Position numbers and translations under genes: made by a program. 64,000 bases of DNA, from NCBI GenBank assembly GCA_030390025.1, contig CM059449.1:14818001-14882000 (forward strand), read 5' to 3'. The stretch is from Squalus acanthias (taxonomy: Eukaryota). The notes beneath the pieces were generated by a model. That model was not told where the DNA came from and did not search any database. It saw only the letters and a list, made by a program, of their open reading frames with translations. How positions within the stretch are numbered: the stretch's first letter is position 1; every line of letters begins with the position of its first letter. Shown piece after piece: positions 9,369 through 64,000 of this stretch.

Positions 9369-9425
9369 TCATTTTCCTTCATTGAAGTTCAATGTACAAT
9401 ATTGTACTTTCTCTACTTCATTTGT
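9369..9425 (-). CDS. ITIM-bearing terminal exon of an inhibitory-type receptor, copy 2 (TNEVEKVQYCTLNFNEGK*)
   Basis: Acceptor attttatttctcttgaaacag; phase-0 frame contains VQYCTL (V/I/L/S-x-Y-x-x-L/V). Near-identical copy at 714-770. Upstream partner exon not established. Confidence 0.6.
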   Translation of the reverse strand, partial: TNEVEKVQYCTLNFNEGK

Positions 9426-12888: not shown

Positions 12889-13630
12889 AAACCCAACAGG
12901 AATGCAGAAATGAATAAAGAAAGGTTTCAAAAAAATATATAGATGATTCTGTATTTTGATTGAAGCCTGAAATGCAGCCAAATTAAACTGCAGTGGTCAA
13001 CATTGGGAAGAAATTGGTACAGATAGTTTTGTAATTGAAAAAAGATTGTAACGGTAAATTATTCCAGAAGGCCATTGAATGGAAAAGGTTTATTCAGATT
13101 GACTTGAAGTCTGCTAATGAAATACTGCTGTTGATAATTTATGTATTGTAGCAATATTAGCTTTTGGCCTTTGTTTGTTAACTAAACAATTTTACAGTCG
13201 TGACCACTGTACGTTTGAACTGAGACTGACCCTAAGGCACTGGTAGGTTTTAATCTGAAGTAACCATCTTCTTAATGAGGAATCTTAATTAAGGACGTGC
13301 CATTGCACATTGGTTCATCAGTTTCAAGAAGCTCTAATCAATGACATGGATGCAAAGACAACAGTTAGTCTGAAAAAGGAAAACATCTGAGTAAATATTA
13401 TCGTTTTTAATTCGGGGTTGTGTAGCATGAGGGAATGAACTGCTGCCGAATGGCACAGAGTAAAAGACAAACTTATAATTAATCGTTTCGCTTGTTGAAA
13501 TAGCAATTATATGTAACAAGAGACCAATTATTGACAAGATAATGAACTGTGAAAAGTTATACTGATTTCGTTAGCCCAATAGAAAATAGCATGTTATAAG
13601 GACACCAATTTATTAATTGATGGTGTTGAT

Positions 13631-13757
13631 AAGAACATAAGAACATAAGAAATAGGAGCAGGAGTCGGCCATCCGGCCCCTCGAGCCTGCTCCGCCATTC
13701 AATAGGATCATGGCTGATCTTCTACCTCAACTCCACTTTCCTGCATTATCCCCATAT
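13631..13757 (-). mobile_element. CR1 3'UTR fragment
   Basis: (taagaaca)n tail and 3'UTR stem. Confidence 0.85.
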
Positions 13758-40100: not shown

Positions 40101-43100
40101 TCTGACCCACCGCACCACCCATTCACAGAGGGGGAAAGGACAGTGTCTGACCCACCGCACCACCCAGTCCCAGAGGGGGAAAGGACAGTGTCTGATCACC
40201 GCACCGCCCAGTCCCCGAGGGGGAAAGGACCGTGTCTGACCCACCGCACTACCCAGTCCCAGAGGGTGAAAGTCCAGTGTCTGATCCACTGCACTACCCA
40301 GTCCCAGTGGGGGAAAGGATAGTTTCTGACGCACTGCACAACCATATCCCAGAGGGGGAAAGGACAGTGTCTGACCAATCGCACCACCCAGTCCCAGAGG
40401 GGGAAATGACAGTGTCTGACCCACTGCACCGCTCAGTCCGAAATGGGGAAAGGGCAGTGTCTGACCCAGAGCACCGCCCAGTACCAGAGGGGGAAAGGAC
40501 AGTGTCAGTCCCACTGCACCGCCCAGTACCAGAGGGTGAAAGGACAGTGTCTGACTCACTGCACCACCCAGTCCCAGAGGGGGAAAGGACAGTGTCTGAC
40601 CCACTGCACCACCCAGTCCCAGAGGGTGAAAGGACAGTGTCTGACCCACTACAGCACCTAGTCCCAGAGGGGGAAAGGACAGTGTCTGACCCACTGCACC
40701 GCCCAGTCCCAGAGGGTGAAAGGGCAGTGTCTGACCCACTACACCACCTAGTCCCAGAGGGGGAAAGGACAGTGTCTGACCCACTGCACCGCCCAGTCCC
40801 AGAGGGTGAAAGGGCAGTGTCTGACCCACTACACCACCTAGTCCCAGAGGGGGAAAGGACAGTGTCTGACCCACTGCAGTGCCCAGTCCCAGAGGGGGAA
40901 AGGACAGTGTCTGACCCACTGCACCACCCAGTCCCAGAGGGGGAAAGGACTGTGTTTGACCCACTGCACCACCCAGTCCCAGAGAGGGAAAGGACAGTGT
41001 CTGACCCACTGCACCACCCAGTCCCAGCGGGGGAAAGGACATTGTCTGACGTACCGCAACACCCAGTCCCAGAGGGGGAAAGGACAGTGTCTGACTTACC
41101 GCAACACCCAGTCCCAGAGGGGGAAAGGACAGTGTCTGACACACTGCACCACCCAGTCCCAGAGGGGGAAAGGACAGTGTCTGACCCACCGCACCACCCA
41201 ATCCCAGAGGGGGAAAGGACAGTGTCTGACCCACTGCACCACCCAGTCCCAGAGGGGGAAAGGACAGTGTTTGCTCCACTGCACAAACATATCCCAGAGG
41301 GGGAAAGGACAGTGTCTGACCAACCGCACCACCCAGTCCCAGACGGGGAAATGACAGTGTCTGACCCACTGCACCGCTCAGTCCGAAATGGGGAAAGGGC
41401 AGTGTCTGACCCAGAGCACCGCCCAGTACCAGAGGGGGAAAGGACAGTGTCAGTCCCACTGCACCGCCCAGTACCAGAGGGTGAAAGGACAGTGTCTGAC
41501 TCACTGCACCACCCAGTCTCAGAGGGGGAAAGGACAGTGTCTGACCCACTGCACCACCCAGTCCCAGAGGGGGAAAGGACAATGTCTGACCCACTGCACT
41601 ACCCAGTCCCAGAGGGGGAAAGGACAGTGTCTGACCCACTGCACAACCCAGTCCAAGAGGGGGAAAGGACAGTGTCTGACCCACTGCACCAGCCAGTCCC
41701 AGAGAGGGAAAGGACAGTGTCTGACCCACTGCACCACCCAGTCCCAGCGGGGGAAAGGACATTGTCTGATGTACCGCAACACCCAGTCCCAGAGGGGGCA
41801 AGTAAAGTGTCTGACCCACTGCACCACCCTGTCCCAGAGGGGGAAAGGACAGTGTCTGACCCACCGTACTACCCAGTCTCAGAGGGGGAAAGGAGAGTGT
41901 CTGACCCACCGCACCACCCAGTCGCAGAGGGGGAAAGGACAGTGTCTGACCCACTGCACCACCCAGTCCCAGAGGGGGAAAGAACAGTGTCTGACCCACT
42001 GCACCACCCATTCGCAGAGGGGGAAAGGACAGTGTCTGACCCACCGCACCACCCAGTCCAAGAGGGGGAAAGGACAGTGTCTGATCACCGCACCGCCCAG
42101 TCCCAGAGGGGGAAAGGACAGTGTCTGACTCACTACACCGCCCAGTCCCAGTGGTGGAAAGGATAGTTTCTGACGCACTGCACAACCATATCCCAGAGGG
42201 GGAAAGGACAGTGTCTGACCCACTGCACCACCCAGTCCCAGAGGGGGAAAGGACAGTGTCTGACCTACTGCACCACCCAGTCCCATGGGGTGAAAGGACA
42301 GTGTCTGACCCACCGCACCACCCAGTCCCAGAGGGTGAAGGGACAGTGTCTGACCCACTGCACCACCCAGTCCCAGAGGGGGAAAGGACAGTGTCTGACC
42401 CACTGCACCGCCCAGTCCCAGAGGGGTAAAGGACAGTGTCTGATCCACTGCACCACCCAGTCCCAGAGGGGGAAAGGACAGTTTCAGCCCTTCCGAACCA
42501 GCCAGTCCAAGAGTGTGAATGTAGAGTGTCTGTCACACTGCAACACCCTGTCTCAGAGGGGGAAAGGACAAAGTCTGACCCTCTCCACCACCCAGTCCCA
42601 GAGTGGGAAGAGACTGTGTCTGATCCACTGCACCACCCAATCTGAGAAGGTGAAAACACAGTGTTTGCCCCTCCGCACCAGGCAGTTCCAGTGGGGGAAA
42701 GGACAGTTTTTGACCCACTGCACCACCCAGTCCCAGAGGGGGAAAGGACAGTGTCTGTTGCACTGCACCACCCAGTCCCAGAGGGGGAATGGACAGTGTC
42801 TGACCCACTGCAACGCCCAGTCCCAGAGGGGGAAAGGACAGTGGCTGACCCACTGCACCGCCAAGTACCAGAGAGTGAAAGGACAGTGTCTGACTCACTG
42901 CACCACCCAGTCCCAGAGGGGGAAAGGACAGTGTCTGACCCACTGCACCACCCAGTCCCAGAGGGTGAAAGGACAGTGTGTGACCCACTACACCACCTAG
43001 TCCCAGAGGGGGAAAGGACAGTGTCTGACCCACTGCACTGCCCAGTCCCAGAGGGGGAAAGGACAGTGTCTGACCCACTGCACAACCCAGTCCAAGAGAG

Positions 43101-46100
43101 GGAAAGGACAGTGTCTGACCCACTGCACCACCCAGTCCCAGAGGGGGAAAGGACTGTGTTTGACCCACTGCACCACCCAGTCCCAGAGAGGGAAAGGACA
43201 GTGTCTGACCCACTGCACCACCCAGTCCCAGCGGGGGAAAGGACATTGTCTGACGTACCGCAACACCCAGTCCCAGAGGGGGAAAGGACAGTGTCTGACC
43301 TACCGCAACACCCAGTCCCAGAGGGGGAAAGGACAGTGTCTGACACACTGCACCACCCAGTCCCAGAGGGGGAAAGGACAGTGTCTGACCCACCGCACCA
43401 CCCAATCCCAGAGGGGGAAAGGACAGTGTCTGACCCACTGCACCACCCAGTCCCAGAGGGGGAAAGGACAGTGTTTGCTCCACTGCACAACCATATCCCA
43501 GAGGGGGAAAGGACAGTGTCTGACCAACCGCACCACCCAGTCCCAGACGGGGAAATGACAGTGTCTGACCCACTGCACCGCTCAGTCCGAAATGGGGAAA
43601 GGGCAGTGTCTGACCCAGAGCACCGCCCAGTACCAGAGGGGGAAATGACAGTGTCTGTCCCACTGCACCGCCCAGTACCAGAGGGTGAAAGGACAGTGTC
43701 TGACTCACTGCACCACCCAGTCCCAGAGGGGGAAAGGACAGTGTCTGACCTACTGCACCACCCAGTCCCAGAGGGGGAAAGGACAGTTACTGACCTACTG
43801 CACCGCCCAGTCCCAGAGGGTAAAAGGACAGTGTCTGACCCAACGCACCACCCATTCCCAGAGGGGGAAAGGGCAGTGTCTGACCCACTGCTACAGACAG
43901 ACCCAGAGGGAGAAAGGACTGTGTCTGACTAACTGCACCACCCAGTCCCAGCGGGGGAAAGGACATTGTCTGACCCACTGCGCCACCCAGTCCCAGAGGG
44001 GGCAAGTAAAGTGTCTGACCCACCGCACCACCCAGCCGCAGAGGGTGAAAGGACAGTGTCTGACCCACTGCACCATCCAGTCCCAGAGGGGGAAAGAACA
44101 GTGTCTGACCCACTGCACCACCCATTCGCAGAGGGGGAAAGGACAGTGTCTGACCCACCGCACCACCCATTCACAGAGGGGGAAAGGACAGTGTCTGACC
44201 CACCGCACCACCCAGTCCCAGAGGGGGAAAGGACAGTGTCTGATCACCGCACCGCCCAGTCCCCGAGGGGGAAAGGACCGTGTCTGACCCACCGCACTAC
44301 CCAGTCCCAGAGGGTGAAAGTCCAGTGTCTGATCCACTGCACTACCCAGTCCCAGTGGGGGAAAGGATAGTTTCTGACGCACTGCACAACCATATCCCAG
44401 AGGGGGAAAGGACAGTGTCTGACCAATCGCACCACCCAGTCCCAGAGGGGGAAATGACAGTGTCTGACCCACTGCACCGCTCAGTCCGAAATGGGGAAAG
44501 GGCAGTGTCTGACCCAGAGCACCGCCCAGTACCAGAGGGGGAAAGGACAGTGTCAGTCCCACTGCACCGCCCAGTACCAGAGGGTGAAAGGACAGTGTCT
44601 GACTCACTGCACCACCCAGTCCCAGAGGGGGAAAGGACAGTGTCTGACCCACTGCACCACCCAGTCCCAGAGGGTGAAAGGACAGTGTCTGACCCACTAC
44701 AGCACCTAGTCCCAGAGGGGGAAAGGACAGTGTCTGACCCACTGCACCGCCCAGTCCCAGAGGGTGAAAGGGCAGTGTCTGACCCACTACACCACCTAGT
44801 CCCAGAGGGGGAAAGGACAGTGTCTGACCCACTGCACTGCCCAGTCCCAGAGGGGGAAAGGACAGTGTCTGACCCACTGCACAACCCAGTCCAAGAGGGG
44901 GAAAGGACAGTGTCTGACCCACTGCACCACCCAGTCCCAGAGGGGGAAAGGACTGTGTTTGACCCACTGCACCACCCAGTCCCAGAGAGGGAAAGGACAG
45001 TGTCTGACCCACTGCACCACCCAGTCCCAGCGGGGGAAAGGACATTGTCTGACGTACCGCAACACCCAGTCCCAGAGGGGGAAAGGACAGTGTCTGACCT
45101 ACCGCAACACCCAGTCCCAGAGGGGGAAAGGACAGTGTCTGACACACTGCACCACCCAGTCCCAGAGGGGGAAAGGACAGTGTCTGACCCACCGCACCAC
45201 CCAATCCCAGAGGGGGAAAGGACAGTGTCTGACCCACTGCACCACCCAGTCCCAGAGGGGGAAAGGACAGTGTTTGCTCCACTGCACAACCATATCCCAG
45301 AGGGGGAAAGGACAGTGTCTGACCAACCGCACCACCCAGTCCCAGACGCGGAAATGACAGTGTCTGACCCACTGCACCGCTCAGTCCGAAATGGGGAAAG
45401 GGCAGTGTCTGACCCAGAGCACCGCCCAGTACCAGAGGGGGAAATGACAGTGTCTGTCCCACTGCACCGCCCAGTACCAGAGGGTGAAAGGACAGTGTCT
45501 GACTCACTGCACCACCCAGTCCCAGAGGGGGAAAGGACAGTGTCTGACCTACTGCACCACCCAGTCCCAGAGGGGGAAAGGACAGTTACTGACCTACTGC
45601 ACCGCCCAGTCCCAGAGGGTAAAAGGACAGTGTCTGACCCAACGCACCACCCATTCCCAGAGGGGGAAAGGGCAGTGTCTGACCCACTGCTACAGACAGA
45701 CCCAGAGGGAGAAAGGACTGTGTCTGACTAACTGCACCACCCAGTCCCAGCGGGGGAAAGGACATTGTCTGACCCACTGCGCCACCCAGTCCCAGAGGGG
45801 GCAAGTAAAGTGTCTGACCCACCGCACCACCCAGCCGCAGAGGGTGAAAGGACAGTGTCTGACCCACTGCACCATCCAGTCCCAGAGGGGGAAAGAACAG
45901 TGTCTGACCCACTGCACCACCCATTCGCAGAGGGGGAAAGGACAGTGTCTGACCCACCGCACCACCCATTCACAGAGGGGGAAAGGACAGTGTCTGACCC
46001 ACCGCACCACCCAGTCCCAGAGGGGGAAAGGACAGTGTCTGATCACCGCACCGCCCAGTCCCCGAGGGGGAAAGGACCGTGTCTGACCCACCGCACTACC

Positions 46101-49100
46101 CAGTCCCAGAGGGTGAAAGTCCAGTGTCTGATCCACTGCACTACCCAGTCCCAGTGGGGGAAAGGATAGTTTCTGACGCACTGCACAACCATATCCCAGA
46201 GGGGGAAAGGACAGTGTCTGACCAATCGCACCACCCAGTCCCAGAGGGGGAAATGACAGTGTCTGACCCACTGCACCGCTCAGTCCGAAATGGGGAAAGG
46301 GCAGTGTCTGACCCAGAGCACCGCCCAGTACCAGAGGGGGAAAGGACAGTGTCAGTCCCACTGCACCGCCCAGTACCAGAGGGTGAAAGGACAGTGTCTG
46401 ACTCACTGCACCACCCAGTCCCAGAGGGGGAAAGGACAGTGTCTGACCCACTGCACCACCCAGTCCCAGAGGGTGAAAGGACAGTGTCTGACCCACTACA
46501 GCACCTAGTCCCAGAGGGGGAAAGGACAGTGTCTGACCCACTGCACTGCCCAGTCCCAGAGGGGGAAAGGACAGTGTCTGACCCACTGCACAACCCAGTC
46601 CAAGAGGGGGAAAGGACAGTGTCTGACCCACTGCACCACCCAGTCCCAGAGGGGGAAAGGACTGTGTTTGACCCACTGCACCACCCAGTCCCAGAGAGGG
46701 AAAGGACAGTGTCTGACCCACTGCACCACCCAGTCCCAGCGGGGGAAAGGACATTGTCTGACGTACCGCAACACCCAGTCCCAGAGGGGGAAAGGACAGT
46801 GTCTGACCTACCGCAACACCCAGTCCCAGAGGGGGAAAGGACAGTGTCTGACACACTGCACCACCCAGTCCCAGAGGGGGAAAGGACAGTGTCTGACCCA
46901 CCGCACCACCCAATCCCAGAGGGGGAAAGGACAGTGTCTGACCCACTGCACCACCCAGTCCCAGAGGGGGAAATGACAGTGTTTGCTCCACTGCACAACC
47001 ATATCCCAGTGGGGGAAAGGACAGTGTCTGACCAACCGCACCACCCAGTCCCAGACGGGGAAATGACAGTGTCTGACCCACTGCACCGCTCAGTCCGAAA
47101 TGGGGAAAGGGCAGTGTCTGACCCAGAGCACCGCCCAGTACCAGAGGGGGAAATGACAGTGTCTGTCCCACTGCACCGCCCAGTACCAGAGGGTGAAAGG
47201 ACAGTGTCTGACTCACTGCACCACCCAGTCCCAGAGGGGGAAAGGACAGTGTCTGACCTACTGCACCACCCAGTCCCAGAGGGGGAAAGGACAGTTACTG
47301 ACCTACTGCACCGCCCAGTCCCAGAGGGTAAAAGGACAGTGTCTGACCCAACGCACCACCCATTCCCAGAGGGGGAAAGGGCAGTGTCTGACCCACTGCT
47401 ACAGACAGACCCAGAGGGAGAAAGGACTGTGTCTGACTAACTGCACCACCCAGTCCCAGCGGGGGAAAGGACATTGTCTGACCCACTGCGCCACCCAGTC
47501 CCAGAGGGGGCAAGTAAAGTGTCTGACCCACCGCACCACCCAGCCGCAGAGGGTGAAAGGACAGTGTCTGACCCACTGCACCATCCAGTCCCAGAGGGGG
47601 AAAGAACAGTGTCTGACCCACTGCACCACCCATTCGCAGAGGGGGAAAGGACAGTGTCTGACCCACCGCACCACCCATTCACAGAGGGGGAAAGGACAGT
47701 GTCTGACCCACCGCACCACCCAGTCCCAGAGGGGGAAAGGACAGTGTCTGATCACCGCACCGCCCAGTCCCCGAGGGGGAAAGGACCGTGTCTGACCCAC
47801 CGCACTACCCAGTCCCAGAGGGTGAAAGTCCAGTGTCTGATCCACTGCACTACCCAGTCCCAGTGGGGGAAAGGATAGTTTCTGACGCACTGCACAACCA
47901 TATCCCAGAGGGGGAAAGGACAGTGTCTGATCAATCGCACCACCCAGTCCCAGAGGGGGAAATGACAGTGTCTGACCCACTGCACCGCTCAGTCCGAAAT
48001 GGGGAAAGGGCAGTGTCTGACCCAGAGCACCGCCCAGTACCAGAGGGGGAAAGGACAGTGTCAGTCCCACTGCACCGCCCAGTACCAGAGGGTGAAAGGA
48101 CAGTGTCTGACTCACTGCACCACCCAGTCCCAGAGGGGGAAAGGACAGTGTCTGACCCACTGCACCACCCAGTCCCAGAGGGTGAAAGGACAGTGTCTGA
48201 CCCACTACAGCACCTAGTCCCAGAGGGGGAAAGGACAGTGTCTGACCCACTGCACCGCCCAGTCCCAGAGGGTGAAAGGGCAGTGTCTGACCCACGGCAC
48301 CACCCAGTCTCAGAGGGGGAAAGGACAGTGTCTGACCCACCGCACCACCCAGTCCCAGAGGGGGAAAGGACAGTGTCTGACCTACTGCACCACCCAGTCC
48401 CAGATGGGGAAAGGACATTGTCTGACCCACTGCACCGCACAGTCCCAGAGGGGGAAAGGACAGTGTCTGACCTACTGCACCACCCAGTCCCATGGGGTGA
48501 AAGGACAGTGTCTGACCCACTGCACCACCCAGTCCCAGAGGCGGAAAGGACAGTGTCTGACCCACTGCACCGCCCAGTCCCAGAGGGATAAAGGACAGTG
48601 TCTGATCCACTGCACCACCCAGTCCCAGAGGGGGAAAGGACAGTGTCAGCCCTTCCGCACCAGCCAGTCGAAGAGTGTGAATGTAGAGTGTCTGTCCCAC
48701 TGCAACACCCTGTCTCAGAGGGGGAAAGGACAAAGTCTGACCCTCTCCACCACCCAGTCCCAGAGTGGGAAGAGACTGTGTCTGATCCACTGCACCACCC
48801 AATCTGAGAAGGTGAAAACACATTGTTTGCCCCTCCGCACCAGGCAGTTCCAGTGGGGGAAAGGACAGTTTTTGACCCACTGCACCACCCAGTCCCAGAG
48901 GGGGAAAGGACAGTGTCTGTCGCACTGCACCACCCAGTCCCAGAGGGGGAATGGAGAGTGTCTGACCCACTGCACCGCCCAGTCCCAGAGGGGGAATGGA
49001 CAGTGTCTGACCCACTACAGCACCTAGTCCCAGAGGGGGAAAGGACAGTGTCTGACCCACTGCACCGCCCAGTCCCAGAGGGTGAAAGGACAGTGTCTGA

Positions 49101-50345
49101 CCCACGGCACCACCCAGTCTCAGAGGGGGAAAGGACAGTGTCTGACCTACTGCACCACCCAGTCCCATGGGGTGAAAGGACATTGTCTGACCCACTGCAC
49201 CGCCCAGTCCCAGAGGGGGAAAGGACAGTGTCTGACCCACCGAACTGCCCAGTCCCAGAGGGGGAAAGGACAGTGTCTGACCTACTGCACCACCCAGTCC
49301 CAGAGGGTGAAAGGACAGTGTCTGACCCACTACACCACCTAGTCCCAGAGGGGGAAAGGACAGTGTCTGACCCACTGCACCGCCCAGTCCCAGAGGGTGA
49401 AAGGACAGTGTCTGACCCACGGCACCACCCAGTCTCAGAGGGGGAAAGGACAGTGTCTGACCCACCGCACCACCCAGTCCCAGAGGGGGAAAGGACAGTG
49501 TCTGACCTACTGCACCACCCAGTCCCAGATGAGGAAAGGACATTGTCTGACCCACTGCTGCGCCCAGTCCCAGAGGGGGAAAGGACAGTGTCTGACCCAC
49601 TGCACCACCCAGTCCCAGAGGGGGAAAGGACAGTGTCTGACCTACTGCACCACCCAGTCCCATGGGGTGAAAGGACAGTGTCTGACCCACTGCACCACCC
49701 AGTCCCAGAGGGGGAAAGGACAGTGTCTGACCCACTGCACCGCCCAGTCCCAGAGGGATAAAGGACAGTGTCTGATCCACTGCACCACCCAGTCCCAGAG
49801 GGTGAAAGGACAGTGTCAGCCCTTCCGCACCAGCCAGTCCAAGAGTGTGAATGTAGAGTGTCTGTCACACTGCAACACCCTGTCTCAGAGGGGGAAAGGA
49901 CAAAGTCTGACCCTCTCCACCACCCAGTCCCAGAGTGGGAAGAGACTGTGTCTGATCCACTGCACCACCCAATCTGAGAAGGTGAAAACACAGTGTTTGC
50001 CCCTCCGCACCAGGCAGTTCCAGTGGGGGAAAGGACAGTTTTTGACCCACTGCACCACCCAGTCCCAGAGGGGGAAAGGACAGTGTCTGTCGCACTGCAC
50101 CACCCAGTCCCAGAGGGGGAATGGACAGTGTCTGACCCACTGCAACGCCCAGTCCCAGAGGGTGAAAGGGCAGTGTCTGACCCACTGCACCACCCAGTCC
50201 CAGAGGGGGAATGGACAGTGTCTGACCCACTGCAACGCCCAGTCCCAGAGTGTGAAAGGACAGAGTCTAACCCACTGCATCACCCAGTACCAGAGTGTGA
50301 AAGGACAGTGTCTGACCCACTGCACCACCCAGTCCCAGAGGGGAA
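31163..50345. repeat. 45-bp minisatellite, about 19.2 kb, about 426 units, with higher-order block structure
   Basis: Consensus CCCACTGCACCACCCAGTCCCAGAGGGGGAAAGGACAGTGTCTGA repeated throughout; variant-unit strings recur at fixed offsets. Confidence 0.99.
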
Positions 50346-50581
50346 AAGGCCTAACCTGTCGTACCGCCCTTTATGTGGTGTATAAAGTTCCAGTACATAA
50401 TATGCACATTGCACCAACCGGTCATTTACAGAAATGTACGGTTAGATTTTCATCTGCAACGGGCAGCCGATTCTTAACACAAATTTTACACTTCGGCAGT
50501 AAGTTGAAAAATATTCTTCAGTCAGTATATGGGTAATTACAATTGCAGTTCGATGATATCAGAGGCAGGCGAATCACTCAC

Positions 50582-52712: not shown

Positions 52713-52755
52713 TCGAGAGAGGAATTAATATCCATAGGATGCTGATTGGATTCAT
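52713..52755 (-). CDS. Leader (signal peptide) exon of the minus-strand NCR3-like gene; exon 52713-52760 includes 5 nt of 5'UTR
   Basis: Acceptor ctctttctctaattccattactgcag, then GAAGA-ATG, MNPISILWILIPLS + 1 nt, donor A|gtaagt. Phase 1 joins the V exon in frame to give MNPISILWILIPLSRINA-ERFTVIQ. Confidence 0.85.
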
Positions 52756-53100
52756 TCTTCCTGCAGTAATGGAATTAGAGAAAGAGGATGAAATAAATAG
52801 GCAAGACCAGAAAATAAGAAACTGCATTCTAACTATGGAGGTGCAAGTCATTCCTAATGTGTGCCCCTTCAATATACGTTTACCGAATATCAGGAGACCT
52901 ACTGAGTGTGAAACAGAAAAAATGAACGAGTTAGCGCAGAGCAGGCGCAGGGGAATGTGATGAGTCTGTTCTGTCTATTTTGAAATGTGATCTGCCCAGA
53001 ACCGAAATGATGTACTCGCTGGTTAATTCAAACAGCTAACATGTTGAAATCAAGCTTGCTAAAAATAAATAATTGCAGACCTACTTTACATTGATTCAGA

Positions 53101-53474
53101 GTGGGCGTAATTTTCACCTTCAACGCTTGCACCGTAAATTCTTGGGGGCGGGGATAATTTTCGCTCTGGGTGAGAGTGTGAAACGGGTGCTATCTAGTTG
53201 CCTCTCATTATACGCTCCCCTCCCATTGACTTCAATGAAAAGGCAAACCGGGTGTTGTGAATAATCGGCGGCTATTTCCATCTTGGCCATTTTACACGAT
53301 GGCCGAAAGTCTAAACAACCCCTGTGGAGCGGATTTTCCGCCCCCCATTCGAGAAACAGGCCGATTTTCATTCCCATTGCTATCAGTGGTAATGACTATC
53401 AGGCCGCTGCTGTAACGGACGCCTGATCCGCAAGGCCAGCTTTTGGCCAAGGTGTCAAGTTTAATATCTACCCT
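53101..53474. mobile_element. Degenerate nested MITEs
   Basis: gggcgtaattttc / ggggataattttc starts, cccattgacttcaatg hairpin core, atctaccc end. Confidence 0.45.
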
Positions 53475-53656
53475 ACTGACTCGGTCTGTGCGCCGGCCAT
53501 TGCAGTGGATCCCTGGGTGTGTGTGTCCATTTTTCAGAGCCTTTAGACTGCGTTTACTATGACACTTGCCCATTATAATTTCATATATATATCTCTAGTA
53601 AAGTGCTTTGTGCTGTAATGATTAAATGTTGTACTTCGCATTACGTTTTATTTTCT

Positions 53657-54230
53657 CTTGATGAGACCACACCTGGAATATTGTGTACAGTTTTGGTCTC
53701 TTTACCTAAGGAAGGATATACTTGCCATAGAGGGAGTGCAACAAAGGTTCACCAGGCTGGTTCCTGGGATGGGGAGATTGCCCTATGAGGAGAGATTGAG
53801 GAGACTAGGCCTATATTCTCTCGAGTTTAGAAGAATGAGAGGTGATCTCATTGAAACATATAAAATTCTTGCAGGACTTGACAGGGTAGATGCAGGGAGG
53901 ATGTTTCCTCAGCTGGGGAGTCTAGAACCAGGGGTCACAGTCTCAGGTTAAGTGGTCGGTATTTAGGACTGAGATGAGAAGACATTTCTTCACTGGGAGG
54001 GTGGTGAATCTTTGGAATTCTCTACCCCAGAGATCTGTGGATGTTCAGTCGTTGAGTGTATTCAAGACAGAGATCGATAGATTTTGGGACTCTGGGGGGA
54101 ATCAAGCAATATTGAGATCGGGCGGGAAAGTGGGGTTGAGGTGGAAGATCAACCATAATCTTATTGAATGGCGGAGCAGGTTCAAAGGGCCGAATGGCCG
54201 ACTCCTGCTGCTATGTCTTATGTTCTTGTA
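53657..54230 (+). mobile_element. CR1 3' end
   Basis: ORFs 53658-53951 and 53974-. Confidence 0.9.
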
Positions 54231-54817
54231 TTCATTCTTAAAAATTGACCTGGAGGAGAGTGATAGAAAGAAAAATAAAGGAGGTGAAACTGCAGTGGGG
54301 AGTCAAAGGAAAGGAATATCGGACGTGATGTATAAGGGACGGATATCTCCAGTTTTCCGCCCCCACGGCATCCTACCAATGTTACCGAGATAACACATTC
54401 ATTTTAAAAGTAGCATCCGTTGTTTTCGTGCAGGTATAAAGTACTTCAGATTTTAAATTAACCCGCCCCAGAACCGAGCGCGTTGAATTCGAACGCTGGG
54501 TTTACAACGGCCCGATTTTATGCTGTGGGTAAACTTGCAGAATCACGTATTTTCAACTTACTCTAATGCCAGAAGTTTACATACATAAACATATTCTGTG
54601 AAGCCGTTGTATATTTCATTGTTCGGCGCTCGCGTCCAAATACACGGGTGACAATGGTTGAAGGACCTCTTCGTAGTTCAATGGCATCTCTGAACAACAG
54701 ATGTAATCACTCTTGAGGTTGACTGCCGAGTGCTGAGAGAATGCCGTTGTTCAGATGAGACTTAGAAGCTATTATGATAAAACTGCGGGGATGGTATTCC
54801 TGCAAGAGTGAAATAAT

Positions 54818-55205
54818 AGGGTACAGTGGTTATATACTGGATTTACTAATCCGAGCGGCATGGACTAATGATCCGCAGACATGAAGTTCAAATCCCATCA
54901 CGGCAGCTGGGGAATTTAAATTCAGTTAATTGAATAAATCTGGAATCAAAAGCTAGTATCAGTAATGGTGACCATGTAACTACCGGATGGTCATAAAAAC
55001 CCATCTGGCTCACGGATGTCCTTTAGGGAAGGAAATCTGCCGTCCTTACCCGGTCTGGCCTATATGTGACTCCAGACCCACAGCAATGTAACTGCCCTCT
55101 GCGGTTCAAGTAGGCAGCTCACCACCACCTTCTCAAGGGCAATTAGGGATGGGCAATAAATGCCGGCCTTGCCAGCGACGTCCACATCCCATGGGCGAAT
55201 AAAAA
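54818..55205 (+). mobile_element. tRNA-derived SINE (family of 2833-4900)
   Basis: agttcaaatcc B box, shared body and caagggcaattagggatgggcaataaatg 3' end. Confidence 0.8.
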
Positions 55206-55432
55206 ATAAATCAAATGGCCATCCGGACTTTTAAACAGACCCAAGTCTCAATGGGGCACTTTTCACCTTGCACACCGAAAGCAGAACTATAGGTTATCAG
55301 AAATTAAATTAGAAATGAAACAACGGGTTGTCATTCAATGTGACTTGATAGCGGAAGGTAGTGTCTGTCATAAAAATCCAATTACTGGTTATAAGCAATT
55401 ATGGAATATCCTTGGAGACTTGCAGTGGGGAA

Positions 55433-55433
55433 T

Positions 55434-55467
<34 letters not shown>

Positions 55468-55468
55468 C
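55433..55468. repeat. (CA)n(TA)n microsatellite
   Basis: Direct reading. Confidence 0.9.
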
Positions 55469-56437
55469 TCCATATATCGTTTTATAATCTGGTTACTTGT
55501 CATTTTCTTCTCTGTGGAAATGTTACTTTTTTTTTACTGATTTTGCAATGTATACTTATTTTTATCATCACGATTTTCAGACCGTAATTGAAATGGACTT
55601 GCCATTAACGATGGGTGAGCTTCCGAGTGGAATACTGGAAGCCAGTAGCCTGGAATTATTGATAGTTGGATATTTTGGTTAAAGGATCTCAGGGCCTCCT
55701 TGAATGAGTGTGATTGGGTGGGGTCAGCCGCTTTCATCATTTGATATCTCTCTTGTGATGGAGTGAATTGTATTCACACTATGCTCGCAAGAGGTGGCTT
55801 AACTCAAAATGTTTCTTAGTTCTCGTAGTCAGTTCCCAAATGTTGAATTACTTACTAATTATTCACCTTGTAAATTACTTCAGTTAAATCGCTCAGAGGA
55901 TTGATATTCTACTTAAATAGAAGTAAGAATAGAATTATCGCCAATTAATCTTCATGGACCAAGAGCATCTAGTTTTTTTTTAAACTCTCGTGTTTATTTT
56001 TGCAGTGTGTCTCAGATATCAGATTTCCTGGAGATAAGTAGCTGGGTGCACAACCGTGAAACTTTGCACGTAGTTGCAGCTTTTATAGATTTTTTTTTCA
56101 GTTTGCAGTTGAATGCGGTTTTGCTACTGGAATATCTAAGGTTGCCAGCTAACGCTTGCAACTTTATCTTGTTTGCAAAATGACTTGTACAAAATACAGG
56201 GGAAAAAAAATCAAAATACTTTGCAGATGCTAGAAAGCTAAACGAAAAACAGAAATACTTGAATTACTGATCCGGCCAATCAGCATCGGTAGTGAAAATA
56301 GACAAGTTACCGTTTCAGTGTAGCACTTGATGAAAAGTAACATTTCAACGGAAATGGAAACCAGGCTGTGTCTATAACGGGCAACCGATCCGCCACGCCA
56401 TTTTTACGCCTGGGTGGTAAGTTGAAAATGAAAAAAG

Positions 56438-56891
56438 TAAGTCCTGCATTTATATAGCGCCTTTCACGACCACCAGACGTCCCAACGCGCTTTACAGCCA
56501 ATGAAGCACCTTTTTTGAAGTGTAGTCACTCTTGTAATGTGGGAAACACAGCAGCCAATTTGCGCACAGCAAGACCCCACTAACAGCAATGTGATAATGA
56601 CCAGATAATCTGTTTTTTGTTTTGTTGGTTGAGGGATAACTATTGGCCAGGGCACCGGGGATAACTCCTCCTGCTCTTCTTCGAAATTGTGCCATGGGAT
56701 CTTTTACGTCCACCTGAGGTTTAACGTCTCATCCAAAAGACTGCACCTCCGACAGTGCAGCACTCCCTCAGCACTGCACTGGAGTGTCGGCCTAGATTTT
56801 TGTGCTCAAGTCTCTGGAGTGGGATTTGAATCCACAAACTTTCATGACCCAGAAGGACGAGGGTGCTACCCACTGAGCCACGGCTGACACC
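56438..56891 (-). mobile_element. Full-length Deu-SINE-like element
   Basis: Reverse complement of the 16497-16952 family. Confidence 0.85.
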
Positions 56892-57635
56892 GTAATGCTG
56901 TAGTGGAAAGGGTCGCCAACATTATGCTCAAAACGCAATGTGCCAAAAATCGTTATTTTCAGGGGAAAAAAACATTTATTGTGCAAAGATTTACTTTGTG
57001 CCTCTGTAAAACATAAATAGGAAATATTCCCCATGGTGTAGTTTCAGGTTCATCGTAAATAGGCGTGAAGATTTCCTCTGCTCCATAAATTTAGAGAATA
57101 TCAAACCAGGGTTCTTTCCGAACATGGTCCAGATTTAACTAGAGATGCCCAGTACAGGAAGTCTTTCTCCACACATTTACCATGCGACTACATACAGAGG
57201 CCAGGAATATGATTCCAAACGCCCGAATTTGCCATCCAGCAAATTTCAACCCAATTTAAACAATCAAACATTAATGCAACACTGTTGTGGCACATTTACA
57301 GAGGCTGGCTAGTTCTGAGTTGCTTTGATGATGTTAGTTTGTTGGGAGAAACGTATTTATTGGAGTTGGCTTTGAACTTTATTGAGACCCGAAGTAATAT
57401 CTCGCTGTACAGATAAGTAACAATCTTTAACGGGCTATATCATTTGAAAACTTTGATTGAGTTTGCTTCTCTGTCAAGTCTCTCATCTAAGTTATCATTA
57501 CATTTTCAGTATAGACCGTTTGGTTTTCTGGTCCTGTACACATCTACGCTACTACTGTTGATTCATTATGCGAATCAGACATTAAACCTTGCAAGTTCAA
57601 AAATCAACAAATAAACAAACATAAACTTCACTCGC

Positions 57636-57773
57636 CTGTAATGGGTTGCAGACTGTTCTCTCCCCTCCAGAACCTGATGTGAGATCCAGAAGCCTGGTGG
57701 TATGAAAGTCTTCTCTGTCAGCTAGATGTGCAAAGTGTATTTGAGGAGGCTCAGTCCGGTTCATAGTGGGCAT
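57636..57773 (-). other. Candidate first (5'UTR) exon of the minus-strand gene with GC donor and a 46-codon uORF
   Basis: accATG...CAG|gcgagt. The leader exon has an acceptor and therefore needs an upstream exon, but other donors (e.g. about 54558, about 55850) are also possible. Confidence 0.25.
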
Positions 57774-58149
57774 GGTCCCACACTACGTAACTGGCATTAA
57801 TTCAGCGCTTCGCCTTACTTGAAAAGGTTAGCGAATGGTTCTTAATAAAAAGAAATAGTAAACGATTCTTGGAAATGCCCCATATTGTAATGTAAGTCTT
57901 TACTGTGGGTGCCTAAGATTCACAATGATTTCCACATTCTGTAGCATGAATTACATGCGCCGTCAATACAAATGGACTAGATTTATTCGGACTGAAATGT
58001 TGATTGGAACCAGACTAAGGGACAATGAGCGCTGCGATTATTAGCTTGGGTTGAACGCCTCTGCTTGAGATTAAACATGCGGCAATTTTCTTGAGAATCA
58101 ACTTCCAAACAGTGCAGTGGCTAACCTGAACTAAAGTTGGAAGATCGCT

Positions 58150-58700
58150 ACATAGGGACATGGGGGAACAGGAGTCGGCCATTCGGCCCCTCGAGCCTGT
58201 TCCGCCATTCAATTCGGTCATTGTTGATCGGTCCTCGACTCCATTTAACCACTTTTGACTCATATCCCTTGATTCTCTTATCTAAAATTCTGTCGAACCC
58301 AGTCTTGGGAAATTTCAATTGTCCCACCATTCACATCCTTCTGGGGAACGAGTTCCATCTTTCGACTACCCCTGGCGTGAAAAAGTGCTTCCTGATTTCA
58401 AGCCTAAATGGCTTAGCTTCAATTTTAATATTATCTCCATTGTTCTCCAACCCCCCCACCCCCAACCAGAGGAAATCGTTTCTCTGTATCTCTTAATTTA
58501 ACAGTTAAGATTAAATAAACACCCTAAAAACCTTGCCCTCTGCTGTGGTATCCTTCTCTTACTATTAATGCATCTCTGCATCTAACCTAGCTTTAAACAT
58601 CTCGGTCAAATCACCCCTCAACCTTCTAAACTCAATAGAATACACGCCAAGTGTAGGCAAACCGTCCTCATAATTTAACTCTTTAAGCCCTGGTTTCAGT
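58150..58700 (-). mobile_element. Older CR1 3' fragments
   Basis: 3'UTR ggccattcggcccctcgagcctg; GVYSIEFRRLRGDL. Confidence 0.75.
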
Positions 58701-59310
58701 ATTATAATCCTGTTACAGTCCTGAACAGTGACTATCATACGTGAACGGGGGCACCAGCACATCCGCGAAAATACTTCCTTTTGCACATAAATTAACTTTA
58801 AGGAATACTGGAAGCAGAAAAAAAACCATTGGAACCAGTTCTTAACGCTGTTTCTCTCTCTCCACAGATGCTGTCCGACCTGCTGAGTGTTTCCTCTTTT
58901 TAATTCGACCCATTAAGCCCGTTCCTTCCACGGATCAAATAAAGTCTGCCCGAGACTGGTCTGTATCGCGAGCACTTAATCGTAAGTTTACACTCATGTA
59001 GTTTACCAGGTAAAACACCATAGAAACCTTGTTTTCGGCTGTGGGATCCTTCTCTCACTTTTAATGTGAACCTGTTCATTCTTGGAATATTAAAATCATT
59101 ATTTCTGCTTATGTTTTGCCCGCAACTGTGGAAGTGTCGAGGGTTTATCTATGGGACCAATGGCACGCTATTTTCTGAACACAGCGGACAGTTGAAGGTA
59201 CAAGTGGGCTAATGTTATTAAGCTGTGGTGTGATGTTCAATGTGTTTTGCTTTTCCATTTGCCATCGTGTGCCACGTGAAAGAGAAGAGCGAGTAATCTG
59301 GTGCGAGCGT

Positions 59311-59450
59311 ATCAAGGGATCAAGGGATATGGGGAGAAAGCAGGGACAGGGTACTGAGTTTGGATGATCAGCCATGATCTCATCGAATGGCGGAGCAGGC
59401 TCGAGGGGCCGAATGGCCTACTCCTGCTCCTATCTTCTATGCTTCTATGA
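59311..59450 (+). mobile_element. CR1 3'UTR fragment
   Basis: gatcaagggatatgggg...ggcggagcaggctcgaggggccgaatggcc. Confidence 0.8.
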
Positions 59451-60202
59451 GCGTATTAAGTGTCAGTACCATAAAAATAGCGTCGCCAACCGAATCTCTC
59501 GGCTAACATTTGAAGCACTTACGGAGAGATTTCTAGGTTTGCTCGGACGTGCTGTGTGTGAGAGACATTTAAGGAAAGCAAGCGGGTTTCACCTTAACTA
59601 CATTTACATTCCGCAGCTGCCGTGCCGTTCAACTCATTGAACTCCGGATCATTAGTCCAGGCCGAGCTGGATGACTGGTCCAGTAACATAACCACGATGC
59701 GACCGTCCCCGTAACGTTAAGCTGTCTTTCTCTTTAAATGTTTACTGGTCCACTGGGCAATTGCCAGCACCTTTTTTTTTCTATTTCTTGTTCCAGATTT
59801 CCAGCATTAGCGAGTTTTCTTTATCCTTGGGAAATATGAAACGGGCGCGATTGCATTTCCCGTCCCATAATCTGGATGCTCACTGATATACGCACGGTAA
59901 TCCACAAAGCTCCGCCAGGACTGCCATCTCGCCGGTGTTTATAGCGGGATGGGTGTCTGCACTTGAGCTTCTTTAAGCCTATGGTTCAGAATCTGGCGAC
60001 GACGGAGATAGGAAAAATTCAAATCCGCAGAAACACCGACCATGTCTGAAGGTTCGCTGTGCCTGGAGTTCGCGTGATACTTTCCATTCCGTCACATCCT
60101 GTCGGTTTCAGCATTATAAAAGGATTGAATTGCAATCTTCTCCCATTCGTGGCCCGTGAATTATTTCATAAATAGTTTCATCGTCTTTACAACGCAGAAA
60201 GA

Positions 60203-60245
60203 ATGATTTCCAGTCTCATAATCTGGATCCTGACTCTTCCCTTTG
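60203..60245 (+). CDS. Leader exon of a second, divergently oriented NCR3-like paralogue; exon 60198-60245, rest of gene outside the window
   Basis: Acceptor tcgtctttacaacgcag, then AAAGA-ATG, MISSLIIWILTLPF + 1 nt, donor G|gtaagt. Same 48-nt exon, 43-nt coding length, phase and xWILxxP pattern as 52713-52760. Confidence 0.75.
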
Positions 60246-60849
60246 GTAAGTAGTTTTCAAATTGATTCACTTGTTCTAAAGCGGAACGCATGGCAACCCG
60301 CGAACTTTATTATGATTATACATGCTAGCGCCTTGGGATAGCAAAGGTCATTTTACCCCAGTAATTCATTACAGGGTGTAATTTTACCCCTTCAGTTTAG
60401 TCCTTTCCTTCCATTAAGTGTGGATCCGGTACATTGTCCAAGTGCCCATCATTTCCCTGACGAGCACAGACGAGTGAGTGACGAGATGTAGGCTTCATAG
60501 CCCAGCTTCATTGGTCTTCACGAGAGCTCCACACACTCTCACATCCGAGCAGAAGTCATTTAAACGAGCGGGGGTGGCGATTCTCCCTACTTTATCCCAC
60601 TGTTTCCGAGGTCAAATGTCCGTCTCTGGCAACAACCCAGATGAGAAGATCCAACTCAGCAAAGTTGGGGAGTTGATGTTGGGATCTTGTGATCTGTATG
60701 GTGCAGTGATGGGCTGCCATTACCAATTGATTCACGTTCCTGCGTTATCTACTTTGAATGCTGAATGAAATCACAGAATGATACAGCATAGAAGGAGGCC
60801 ATTCGGCCCATCGTGTCTGTGCCGGCTCTTTAACAGAGCTATCCAACTA

Positions 60850-61171
60850 GGGCAACACGGTGGCATAGTGGTTAGCACTGTTGCCTCACAGCGCCAGGGA
60901 CCCGGGTTCGAATCCGGCCCCGGGTGACTGTCTGTGTGGAGTTTGCACATTCTCCTCGTGCCTGCGTGGGTTTCTTCCGGGTGCTCCGGTTTCCTCCAAC
61001 AGTCCAAAGATATGCCGGTTAGGTTGATTTGGCTGTGATAAATTGACCCTTAGTGTTAGGGGGGATTAAATACATGGGGTTACGGGGATAGGGTGGGATA
61101 TGTGTCGGTGCAGGCTCGATGGGCCGAAATGGCCTCTATCTGCACTGTGGGGATTCTGTGATTCTGTGATA
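60850..61171 (+). mobile_element. HE1/V-SINE-like tRNA-derived SINE inserted in a minus-strand CR1 3' fragment (60771-61272)
   Basis: tggcatagtgg A box, ggttcgaatcc B box, V-core gtggagtttgcacattctc, CR1-like 3' end with (gattctgt)n tail. Confidence 0.88.
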
Positions 61172-61565
61172 GCCCCACTCCTCGGCTCTTTGCTTATAGC
61201 CCTGCAATTGTTTCTTTCCACGTATTTGTTCAATTTCCTTTTGAAAGTTACTATTGAATCTGCTTTCACCACCAATTATTTATCCAATGGGCGTACTAAC
61301 TCAAATTCAGTGCTATAGTAGCTCAATACTCAACTAACTCTTCTAAAATGTCAGTGGCCCTTAACCCAAAATAATGTTTTTGTTCCCTTTTCATTTCTTC
61401 AAGCAAAGCATGCACAACAAAAAAAAAACAATCACTCATGCCATTATCCCCTGCCAGTTAACAGAAAAAATTAGGGAACACCCACACCCATGATTGTGCG
61501 GTGCCCGCTTAATAAAGGTAATAAAATTGGAGCAGATTGTGTTTGAACCCAGTGAGAAAGATAGT

Positions 61566-61751
61566 GGGGGTAATTCTAATTTTTGGCGATAAGATAAAAC
61601 AGGCCATATCGGATGGACCGCCAGTTATACATCCCGCCGGATTTTCCGAAGTATTGACGCAAATGGAAAGGAAAATGTGAGAGGTGTATAACGGGCGTCA
61701 GATCCGATATTGCCTGTTTTATCCTATTGCAAAAAGTTAAAATTACCCCCA
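61566..61751. mobile_element. Palindromic MITE
   Basis: tgggggtaattctaattttt...aaaaagttaaaattaccccca with internal gataaaacaggc/gcctgttttatc arms. Confidence 0.8.
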
Positions 61752-61849
61752 GTATAGATAAAGTCAAGAGGAAACTGTATCATCGTTTTGCAACAAAAAA
61801 ACCCAAGCAAATGGGTGAGAGCGAGTTGTAAGCAAAACATTTCTTTAAC

Positions 61850-64000
61850 GATGGGAGTGAACATCGGGGTATAGATGTTTCAGTAAGAGTAGGGAAGTTG
61901 GTAAGAAAGGTGGAGGAGTAGCATTGTTAATCAAGGATAGTTTAACAGCGGCAGAAAGGCAGTTCGAGGGGGATCTGCCGTCTGAGGTAATATGGGCTGA
62001 AGTTAGAAATAGGAAAGGAGCGGTCACGTTGTTAGGAGTTTTCTACAGGCCCCCAAATAGTAATAAAGATGTGGAGGAAGAAATTGCAAAGCAGATTATG
62101 AATAGGTGTGGAGGTCACAGAGTAGTTGCCATGGGTGACTTCAACTTTCCAAATATTGATTGGAACCTTTATAGGTCAAACAGTTCGGATGGGATAGTTT
62201 TTGCACAGTGTGTGCAGGAGGGTTTCCTGACACAATATGTGGATAGGCCGACAAGAGGTGGGGCCACGTTGGATTTGGTACTGGGTAATGAACCGGGCCA
62301 AGTGTTTGATTTGTATGTGGGAGAGCACTTTGGAGATAGTGACCACAATTCGGTAACTTTCACTATTGCAATGGAGAGGGATAGGGCCATACGGCAGGGC
62401 AGGGTTTATAATTGGGGGAGGGGTAATTATGATGCGATTAGGCAAGAATTAGGGAGTATAAGATGGGAACAGAAACTATCAGGGAAAGGCACAAACGAAA
62501 AGTGGAGCTTTTTCATGGAGCAATTACTGCGTGTCCTTGATAGGTATGTCCCTGTCAGGCAGGGAGGAAATGGCCGAGTGAGAGAACCATGGTTCACAAA
62601 AGAGGTTGAATGTCTAGTCAAGAGGAAAAAGGAAGCGTATGTAAGGATGAGAAAACAAGGTTCAGTTGGGTCGATTGAGGGGTACAAGGTAGCAAGGAAT
62701 GAGCTAAAAAAAGAGCTTAGGAGAGCTAGGAGGGGGCATGAGAAGTCCTTGGCGGGTCGAATCAAGAAAAACCCCAAGGCTTTTTACTCTTATGTGAGAA
62801 ATAAAAGAATGACCAGGGTGAGGGTAGGGCCGGTCAAGGACAGTAGTGGGAACTTGTGCATGGAGTCAGAGGAGATAGGAGAGGTGATGAATGAATACTT
62901 TTCGTCAGTGTTCACCGAGGAGAGGGGCCATGTTCTTGAGGATGAGAGTGTGATAAAGGTGGATAGGCTGGATGTGGTAGATGTTCTGAGGGAAGATGTT
63001 TTAGCAATTTTGAAGAACCTGAGGGTCGATAAGTCCCCTGGGCCAGATGGGATATATCCTAGGATTCTTTGGGAGGCAAGGGAGGAGATTGCAGAGCCTC
63101 TGGCTTTGATCTTTGGGTCCTCACTCTCCACGGGGATGGTGCCAGAGGACTGGAGAGTGGCGAATGTTGTTCCTCTCTTCAAGAAAGGAAATAGGAATGA
63201 CCCTGGTAATTATAGGCCGGTTAGTCTTACTTCGGTGGTTGGTAAGATAATGGAAAAGGTCCTGAGGGATAGGATTTATGACCATTTGGAAAGGGGCAAC
63301 TTAATCAGGGATAGTCAACACGGATTCGTGAAGGGTAAGTCTTGCCTAACAAATTTGATTGAATTCTTTGAGGAGGTAACTAAGTGTGTAGATGAAGGTA
63401 GAGCAGTTGATGTCGTATACATGGATTTTAGTAAGGCGTTTGATAAGGTTCCCCATGGTCGTCTCATGAAGAAAGTAAGGAGTTGTGGGATAGAGGGAAA
63501 TTTGGCCGATTGGATAAGTAACTGGCTATCTCATAGAAGGCAGAGGGTGGTGGTGGATGGAACATTTTCGGACTGGAGACCAGTTACCAGCGGTGTGCCA
63601 CAGGGGTCGGTGCTGGGTCCTCTGCTGTTTGTGATTTTTATCAATGACTTGGAGGAGGGGACTGAAGGGTGGATCAGTAAATTTGCTGATGACACCAAGA
63701 TTGGTGGAGTAGTGGATGAGGTGGAGGGCAGTTGTAGGCTGCAAAGAGACATTGATAGGATGCAGAGCTGGGCCGAAAAATGGCAGATGGAATTTAACCC
63801 TGATAAGTGCGAGGTGATTCATTTTGGTAGGGCAAATGTGAATAAGGATTACAGGGTCAACGGCAGGGTTCTGAGGAACGTGGAGGAGCAGAGGGATCTG
63901 GGGGTTCATATCCACAGATCTCTGAAGGTTGCCACTCAAGTGGATAGAGCAGTAAAGAAGGCCTATGGTGTGTTGGCGTTTATTAACAGAGGGTTTGAGT
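61850..64000 (+). mobile_element. Young CR1 LINE, ORF2 (APE plus RT) apparently uninterrupted to the window end
   Basis: GGGVALLIK, GVFYRPP, GDFNFP, SDHN, YRPVSLTS and FADDTK; TAT at 61870 and TTT of FADD at 63682 are in the same frame, and the ORF track lists no terminated plus-strand ORF here. Confidence 0.93.

What the first reader, a model, noticed from the sequence alone, without database searches (positions are those of the whole stretch)
52713..60245. Head-to-head pair of paralogous receptor genes revealed by twin leader exons
Seen: two 48-nt exons on opposite strands, 7.4 kb apart, each cag|xAAGA-ATG + 14 codons + 1 nt|gtaagt (MNPISILWILIPLS vs MISSLIIWILTLPF). Inference: a second NCR3-like gene is transcribed divergently, with its V exon beyond 64000. 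Both genes need upstream 5'UTR exons, so their promoters lie in the shared interval, which raises the possibility of a bidirectional or competing promoter. Bidirectional switch promoters are known for Ly49/KIR genes.
Basis: partly seen in the sequence, partly recalled or inferred. Interest (0 to 1): 0.7.

Follow-up and report, generated by a model that had tools for sequence, protein, structure and literature searches.

The report
Shark receptor pair, one gene broken
Two shark immune-receptor genes of the known NKp30 family sit back to back: one is intact and predicted to be an 'off-switch' receptor with four binding domains, the other is broken in this assembly and likely dead, so this looks like ordinary shuffling in a large gene cluster rather than a shared on/off promoter.

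Summary
Both 48-nt leader exons are real, and the predicted plus-strand gene exists. Gene B splices in silico to an intact 558-aa receptor: four tandem V exons starting 4.5 kb past the window, an uncharged TM and two ITIMs. Its partner, gene A, has a 1-nt frameshift in its V exon, runs into a 19-kb tandem array and has no TM exon that I could find. A and B are old NCR3 subtypes, not twins; A's close paralogue is gene X, about 90 kb further left. The pair lies in a cluster of at least 72 NCR3-like V exons, where 14 of 50 adjacent units are divergent against 12.7 expected by chance. The 7.4-kb interval shows no CpG island or opposed TATA pair, and B has its own TATA box. Ly49/KIR switches pit one gene against noncoding RNA. 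Expression is untested. Verdict: new members of a known family; switch promoter not supported. The scan has noted similar shark NCR3 clusters on other DNA.

The parts
52713..52760 (-). Gene A leader exon (MNPISILWILIPLS, phase 1)
   Evidence: subtype of gene X and horn shark P0010/P0011
50582..50925 (-). Gene A single VJ-type Ig exon, 344 nt, with a 1-nt deletion near 50724 relative to its paralogues; as assembled the product stops after 95 aa
   Evidence: contigs of related organisms carry the extra base
31163..50349 (.). 19.2-kb tandem array, 45-bp unit, 427 copies, in the intron after A's V exon; gene X has the same array at the same junction
11823..15450 (-). Inverted copy (94%) of gene B's post-TM intron, with an identical 41-nt cytoplasmic exon at 14195-14155; lacks the TM exon
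9306..9425 (-). Copy 1 of B's terminal exon: ITIM-like VQYCTL, then a TGA stop
651..770 (-). Copy 2 of B's terminal exon, same stop
52761..60197 (.). Interval between the leaders: GC 34-48% per 400-bp bin, 29% repeat-covered, no divergent TATA pair; one ETS motif at 57155
59853..59896 (+). Decayed copy of B's leader (27/39 nt, no ATG in frame), inside a possible 99-nt noncoding exon 59797-59896
   Evidence: exon status inferred from splice-like ends only
60115..60121 (+). TATAAAA 88 nt upstream of B's ATG: candidate proximal promoter
   Evidence: motif match only
60198..60245 (+). Gene B leader exon (MISSLIIWILTLPF, phase 1)
   Evidence: matches horn shark P0001 leader
60246..64000 (+). Start of gene B's leader-V intron. 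The rest of gene B lies beyond the window (C26 = 14818000 + coordinate): four open 339-nt VJ exons at 68522, 70333, 73058, 74107; uncharged TM exon 77146-77262; cytoplasmic exons 78710-78750 and 81356-81475 with ITIM-consensus motifs VQYSAL and VAYSLV

Best explanation
The two leaders belong to two anciently diverged shark NCR3/NKp30-family genes that likely came to sit back to back through inversions and duplications in a large receptor cluster: plus-strand gene B is intact and predicted to be an inhibitory receptor with four V domains, likely with its own promoter, while minus-strand gene A is frameshifted, lacks a detectable transmembrane exon and is likely a pseudogene. Shown: exon anatomy, B's open frame, A's lesions in this assembly, subtype relationships, cluster size, chance-level orientation. 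Inferred: B signals through ITIM-recruited phosphatases (established ITIM biology, recalled); all four V exons are spliced into one chain; A is not made as a membrane receptor; the promoters are separate.
For: B: 8 coding exons give a 558-aa ORF with one terminal stop; relatives in horn, white and cat shark have the same leader, uncharged TM and tyrosine motif. A: 1-nt deletion against X1, X3 and X4. No TM exon was found by tblastn or blastn over 80 kb downstream while X's TM was found as a positive control, and there is no second copy of X's TM genome-wide by DNA search. A's leader departs from residues shared by X, horn shark and catshark (IPLSR against AVFSG, AALIG, AVFLG). Tree: A with X and horn shark, catshark and Mobula proteins (100/99); B with horn, white and cat shark proteins (100/100). 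10 of 72 V exons are visibly broken. Divergent pairs 14 of 50, null mean 12.7, P=0.33.
Against: No transcript or start-site data, so separate promoters are not shown. A keeps an intact ATG and splice sites, and an A-like V exon with A's own upstream intron is present in 2 of 4 DNA runs of related organisms, so A was alive recently or is alive elsewhere. A 1-nt deletion could be an assembly error, and the TM loss lies at the end of a long tandem array, where assemblies can mis-join. Ly49's switch lies about 5 kb upstream of its mature promoter, so a distal element fits physically in 7.4 kb. The genome-wide protein search for an A-type TM and tail was insensitive: it missed X's own TM exon.
Confidence: 0.72

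Rival explanations
1. Gene A is intact in the animal (frameshift and TM loss are assembly or haplotype artefacts), so A and B are two working receptors back to back, each with its own promoter and perhaps a shared enhancer.
For: All 4 contigs that span the frameshift (one per run, 4 of 4 runs) have the extra base. Splice sites and ATG are intact. Horn shark has two single-V genes of this subtype with a TM, whose RefSeq numbers directly follow those of the B orthologue.
Against: Those contigs are only about 87-89% identical, so they come from relatives or paralogues. Two independent lesions would both have to be errors. No spare TM exon was found in the assembly. The leader looks drifted.
Confidence: 0.12
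2. Gene A makes a secreted decoy: its phase-1 V exon would splice in frame to the inverted copies of B's two cytoplasmic exons, giving a TM-less V domain with a short borrowed tail.
For: With X at the break, the four exons join in frame to a 161-aa product ending at a stop shared by both tail copies. The 41-nt exon copy is identical to B's. A horn shark gene model (P0010) also joins an A-type V and TM to B-type tail exons.
Against: Needs the frameshift to be false. The intron would be 36 kb. The inverted copy is about 94-96% identical in introns too, as a recent neutral duplicate would be. P0010 may be a chimeric prediction.
Confidence: 0.07
3. One bidirectional or competing promoter in the interval chooses between A and B, or between B and a noncoding A-strand RNA, giving variegated expression as in Ly49/KIR.
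For: Divergent layout. A probably needs an upstream exon. A dead gene A could still supply an 'off-state' RNA. One ETS-type motif near the middle and three RUNX motifs lie in the interval (consensus matches only).
Against: 7.4 kb apart, against under 1 kb for divergent promoters. No G/C-rich CpG island. No opposed TATA pair at 40-200 bp, although only 11% of simulated intervals have one, so this absence is weak. B has a proximal TATA. Orientation is at the chance rate.
Confidence: 0.06

Closest known systems
Elasmobranch NCR3-like receptors: horn shark XP_067865381, white shark XP_041069022, catshark XP_038673433 (gene B subtype)
   Same: V domain 76/70/61% identical, same leader type, uncharged TM, VQYxxL tail
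   Different: Those proteins have one V; B has four tandem V exons (91-96% nt including introns) and keeps a second ITIM tyrosine (VAYSLV) where white and cat shark have Cys
Horn shark XP_067865383-391 and XP_067865770-775, catshark XP_038671255, Mobula XP_062903899 (gene A/X subtype)
   Same: Same V clade and leader type; 1-3 V domains per protein, so multi-V forms already exist
   Different: A is frameshifted and has lost TM and tail in this assembly
Nurse shark NCR3 family (MT914154-914161; Kinlein et al. 2021)
   Same: Multigene, non-rearranging VJ-exon family; nurse shark P0017 groups with another subtype of this cluster
   Different: Eight accessions there against at least 72 V exons (about 53 units) here. 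The paper was not held; its content is recalled, not read
Human NKp30 (NCR3)
   Same: Top four PDB hits for the X/A-type V (E about 7e-15, next 1.6e-8); best single-domain hit for B's V
   Different: One V, Arg in the TM, activating through CD3zeta/FcRgamma; B has four V, no TM charge and ITIMs
Ly49 Pro1 and KIR probabilistic bidirectional switches
   Same: Sit upstream of NK-receptor genes in multigene clusters; Pro1 lies about 5 kb upstream
   Different: About 100-bp elements; the reverse transcript is noncoding, not a second receptor. No such element was found here

Membership tests
NCR3/NKp30 family | Unsplit V+J in one exon, ending in a G-x-G-T J motif, phase 1 on both sides | tested here: met
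NCR3/NKp30 family | Closest characterised relative is NKp30 / groups with annotated shark NCR3 | tested here: met
   for B's V, seven multi-domain antibody constructs outscore NKp30; the tree has no non-NCR3 outgroup
NCR3/NKp30 family | Linkage to the MHC | tested here: inconclusive
   16 of 50 class I domain matches lie on C26, 14-21 Mb from the cluster's end; the best-scoring ones are on small contigs; the class II search found nothing anywhere
NCR3/NKp30 family | Binds B7H6; expressed on NK or T cells | not testable with these tools
   no binding or expression data
Canonical activating NKp30 | Single V and charged Arg in the TM | tested here: not met
   B has four V and an uncharged TM; A has no TM found
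ITIM inhibitory receptor (gene B) | Uncharged TM plus cytoplasmic V/I/L-x-Y-x-x-L/V motifs in frame (consensus recalled) | tested here: met
   VQYSAL and VAYSLV in frame; phosphatase recruitment untested
Ly49/KIR probabilistic switch | About 100-bp element with opposed TATA boxes and competing factor sites | tested here: not met
   no divergent TATA pair at 40-200 bp; weak test, motif scan only
Ly49/KIR probabilistic switch | Sense versus noncoding antisense transcripts, mutually exclusive per allele | not testable with these tools
   no usable RNA data
Bidirectional head-to-head gene pair | Start sites within 1 kb, usually with a CpG island | tested here: inconclusive
   start sites unknown; leaders 7.4 kb apart; no bin above 48% GC

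The most novel reading that the evidence does not exclude
Gene A is alive as RNA: transcription leftwards from the shared interval splices its NKp30-like V exon onto an inverted copy of gene B's tail exons, giving either a secreted decoy or a noncoding off-state transcript that competes with the four-domain inhibitory receptor B. The same A-type-head, B-type-tail chimera appears in a horn shark gene model, so the two arms may have traded tails since before these sharks split. This would be the oldest vertebrate case of a switch that variegates NK-type receptors.
Probability: 0.08. Interest if true: 0.7.

Novelty: new member of a known kind. Interest (0 to 1): 0.3.

Why it matters
As found, it adds an intact, predicted inhibitory four-V NKp30-family receptor and shows that a shark can expand NCR3 to at least 72 V exons in 3.7 Mb, with apparently activating, inhibitory and dead members: a Ly49/KIR-like birth-and-death cluster built from an NK receptor that sharks share with humans. 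That is useful for NK-receptor evolution but fits expectation. If the switch or decoy reading held, it would make a real open question testable: how the earliest jawed vertebrates distribute NK receptors among cells.

Tried and rejected
RNA: no RNA holder was listed. Four guessed-RNA runs laid on B's V1-TM stretch had zero depth in the bins holding V2, V3, V4 and the TM exon and next to none over V1; they covered mainly repeats. This is no evidence either way. DNA runs were too distant (about 87-91% on the long pieces) to decide whether A's frameshift is real. Considered and rejected: that one inversion split a single gene, making A's leader the missing leader of gene X; X has its own leader at -50390. 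A and B as recent twins: rejected by the tree and by about 36% V identity. A 5'UTR exon shared by A and X: no non-repeat similarity upstream of the leader flanks. dN/dS of A against X (1.4-1.5) and among B's V exons (0.9-2.0) rests on 6 or fewer synonymous changes and is uninformative (the script stopped with an error before the leader comparison). The genome-wide protein search for an A-type tail missed its own positive control. The class II search found nothing. Gene orientation in other sharks could not be checked: no relatives' genomes are held. No fold or complex job was run. Kinlein 2021 was not held. Searches with the terms NCR3+shark+NKp30, NCR3+cartilaginous+nurse shark, NCR3+elasmobranch+MHC, NCR3/MHC/cartilaginous fish/synteny, NKp30/shark/expanded/B7H6 and NCR3/head-to-head/divergently transcribed/fish listed no paper on this locus or its promoters; I judged most rows by title and abstract start only.
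Full report
Observation. A loose leader pattern occurs 2 times in the window without its array, against 0.045 expected; 1 of 200 simulations reached 2. The two are 28/48 nt identical. The window is G000:C26:14818001-14882000 in a 3.7-Gb genome; all close protein relatives are from sharks and rays. Coordinates outside 1-64000 below continue the window's numbering. I read 100 kb to the left and 300 kb to the right.

Gene B (plus). Four 339-nt VJ exons lie at 68522, 70333, 73058 and 74107, all open with intact splice sites, followed by a TM exon (77146-77262), a 41-nt exon (78710) and a terminal exon (81356-81475). Joined in silico they give 558 aa with one terminal stop, an uncharged TM and two ITIM-consensus motifs, VQYSAL and VAYSLV. 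The three relatives found (3 of 117 candidates), from horn, white and cat shark, are 76, 70 and 61% identical in V and have one V each. The four V exons are recent tandem copies, 91-96% identical with their introns. That they form one four-domain chain is inferred; multi-V proteins of a sister subtype are annotated in horn shark, catshark and Mobula.

Gene A (minus). Its single V exon (50925-50582) is 344 nt and lacks one base near 50724 relative to its paralogues X1, X3 and X4; as assembled, translation stops after 95 aa. A 19.2-kb array of 45-bp units follows. The V exon, its 3' flank and the array junction match the fourth V exon of gene X, a four-V gene on the plus strand at -50390 to about -9700 (86% over 481 nt; 90% to X's other V exons). 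In X a shorter version of the array leads to a TM exon. In A the array ends in a LINE fragment and no TM exon was found over 80 kb, while X's was found; a genome-wide DNA search gave only X's own copy. Further along A's strand lie an inverted, TM-less copy of B's 3' end (94%, 15450-11823; 92%, 9651-9231) and a second terminal-exon copy (770-651), both with a stop just after the first ITIM. Against the pseudogene reading: in 4 of 4 DNA runs the one contig that spans the break has the extra base, and 2 of 4 runs (one study) hold A's own upstream intron at about 90%. But these contigs are 87-91% identical, so they are relatives or paralogues and cannot show whether the deletion is real in this animal.

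Relationship. In a maximum-likelihood tree of 42 V domains, A groups with X and horn shark, catshark and Mobula proteins (100/99), and B with horn, white and cat shark proteins (100/100). The third V of P0008 and of P0009 was missed by my extraction and left out; there is no outgroup. A and B are thus old subtypes. Human NKp30 gives the top four PDB hits for the X/A type and the best single-domain hit for B, behind seven antibody constructs.

Cluster. A search with B's V gave 70 matches (150 of 320 candidates scored), all on C26:13.47-17.14 Mb; a second query added 2 frameshifted exons (57 matches). So there are at least 72, of which 5 have stops, 3 match only in part (A among them) and 2 are split. 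Grouping the 70 by strand and a 6-kb rule gives 53 units (a heuristic that merges some genes); of 50 adjacent pairs under 500 kb, 14 are divergent, 14 convergent and 22 tandem. Shuffled strands give 12.7 divergent, P=0.33. Four other divergent leader pairs lie within the next 300 kb, 4.2-9.9 kb apart; they are largely copies of one another and include inverted blocks. Neighbours include Arg-TM, activating-looking genes (TM exons at 101243 and 154495) and double-ITIM genes. Class I domains lie on the same contig at 30.7-38.4 Mb (16 of 50 matches); MHC linkage proper is not shown.

The interval. It is 34-48% GC per 400-bp bin and 29% repeat-covered; CpG o/e is raised near each leader and at 54.4 kb, but there is no G/C-rich island. 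There is no divergent TATA pair at 40-200 bp, a weak negative since only 11% of simulations have one. B has TATAAAA 88 nt before its ATG. Of 11 leaders checked, 4 have a TATA-like box within 200 nt: B and three near-identical copies of another subtype that shares the cag+5nt+ATG layout, one of which has lost the cag. All of this is motif-level.

Comparison with Ly49/KIR. In PMC4222648 (abstract, overview and Ly49 section read) the Ly49 switch is about 100 bp with two TATA boxes, about 5 kb upstream, and its reverse transcript has no coding region; the KIR switch lies 60 bp before the start codon and makes an antisense RNA. PMC10887517 (passages) uses 1 kb for divergent promoters and notes CpG islands. 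Neither text, in the parts I read, describes a choice between two receptor genes. PMC6514059 (passages) gives NKp30's single V and TM arginine. PMC12227049 and PMC10751288 (passages) give NCR3 as an MHC-linked VJ gene, and the first lists eight nurse shark accessions. Kinlein 2021 was not held, so its gene maps and supplements, which I could not see, may already show this kind of arrangement. The ITIM consensus and CR1/LINE labels are recalled.

Mechanism and verdict. Most likely (0.72) B is a self-contained inhibitory receptor and A a decayed relative of X, back to back because the cluster is shuffled by inversion and duplication. Rivals: A intact (0.12), A as a secreted decoy using B's copied tail exons (0.07; the frame works with X at the break, and horn shark model P0010 has an A-type head on a B-type tail), and a true switch (0.06). 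Expression is untested. Earlier scan notes describe similar shark NCR3 clusters (none at this place); they are leads, not support. Novelty: new member of a known kind. Interest 0.3.

Noticed in passing
C26:13.47-17.14 Mb (window -1.35 Mb to +2.3 Mb): At least 72 NCR3-like V exons on one contig, far more than the eight nurse shark accessions; mixed Arg-TM, ITIM and broken members
   Followed up: partly
-50390 to about -9700 (L036-L041), plus strand: Gene X: leader, four V exons (V1-V3 in 98% identical 2.2-kb units), tandem array, TM with a central Glu also present in horn shark P0008, tail pieces with IQYAMI and DYGYDEL motifs
   Followed up: partly
window 31163-50349: 45-bp array with kb-scale higher-order repeats and long open frames in several phases; its paralogue in gene X sits at the same V-TM intron junction
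   Followed up: partly
window 59797-59896 (+): Decayed copy of B's leader inside a stretch with acceptor- and donor-like ends; could be a noncoding 5' exon
   Followed up: partly
191740-201672, 220927-227854, 273337-277495, 340822-345966: Repeated head-to-head cassettes, mostly an ITIM-type gene facing an MQTIHMW-leader gene whose TM and tail were not found nearby; better candidates for shared-enhancer tests than the A/B pair
   Followed up: partly
window 9306-9425 and 651-770 against 81356-81475: The tail copies read YCTL..EGK like white and cat shark orthologues, while B reads YSAL..ERK like horn shark P0010; horn shark P0001 has both in tandem. Suggests two old ITIM exon types or exchange between copies
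   Followed up: partly
65458-65865 and 67323-67728 (L002): 408-bp inverted repeat, 99% identical, in B's leader-V intron; possibly the ends of a young DNA transposon
   Followed up: no
window 57150-57170: ACAGGAAGT ETS motif near the middle of the interval in non-repeat sequence; candidate lymphoid element
   Followed up: no
216437-217330 (L017): Two V exons of one subtype only about 570 bp apart on the minus strand; the same doublet recurs at C26:15.19 and 15.53 Mb
   Followed up: no
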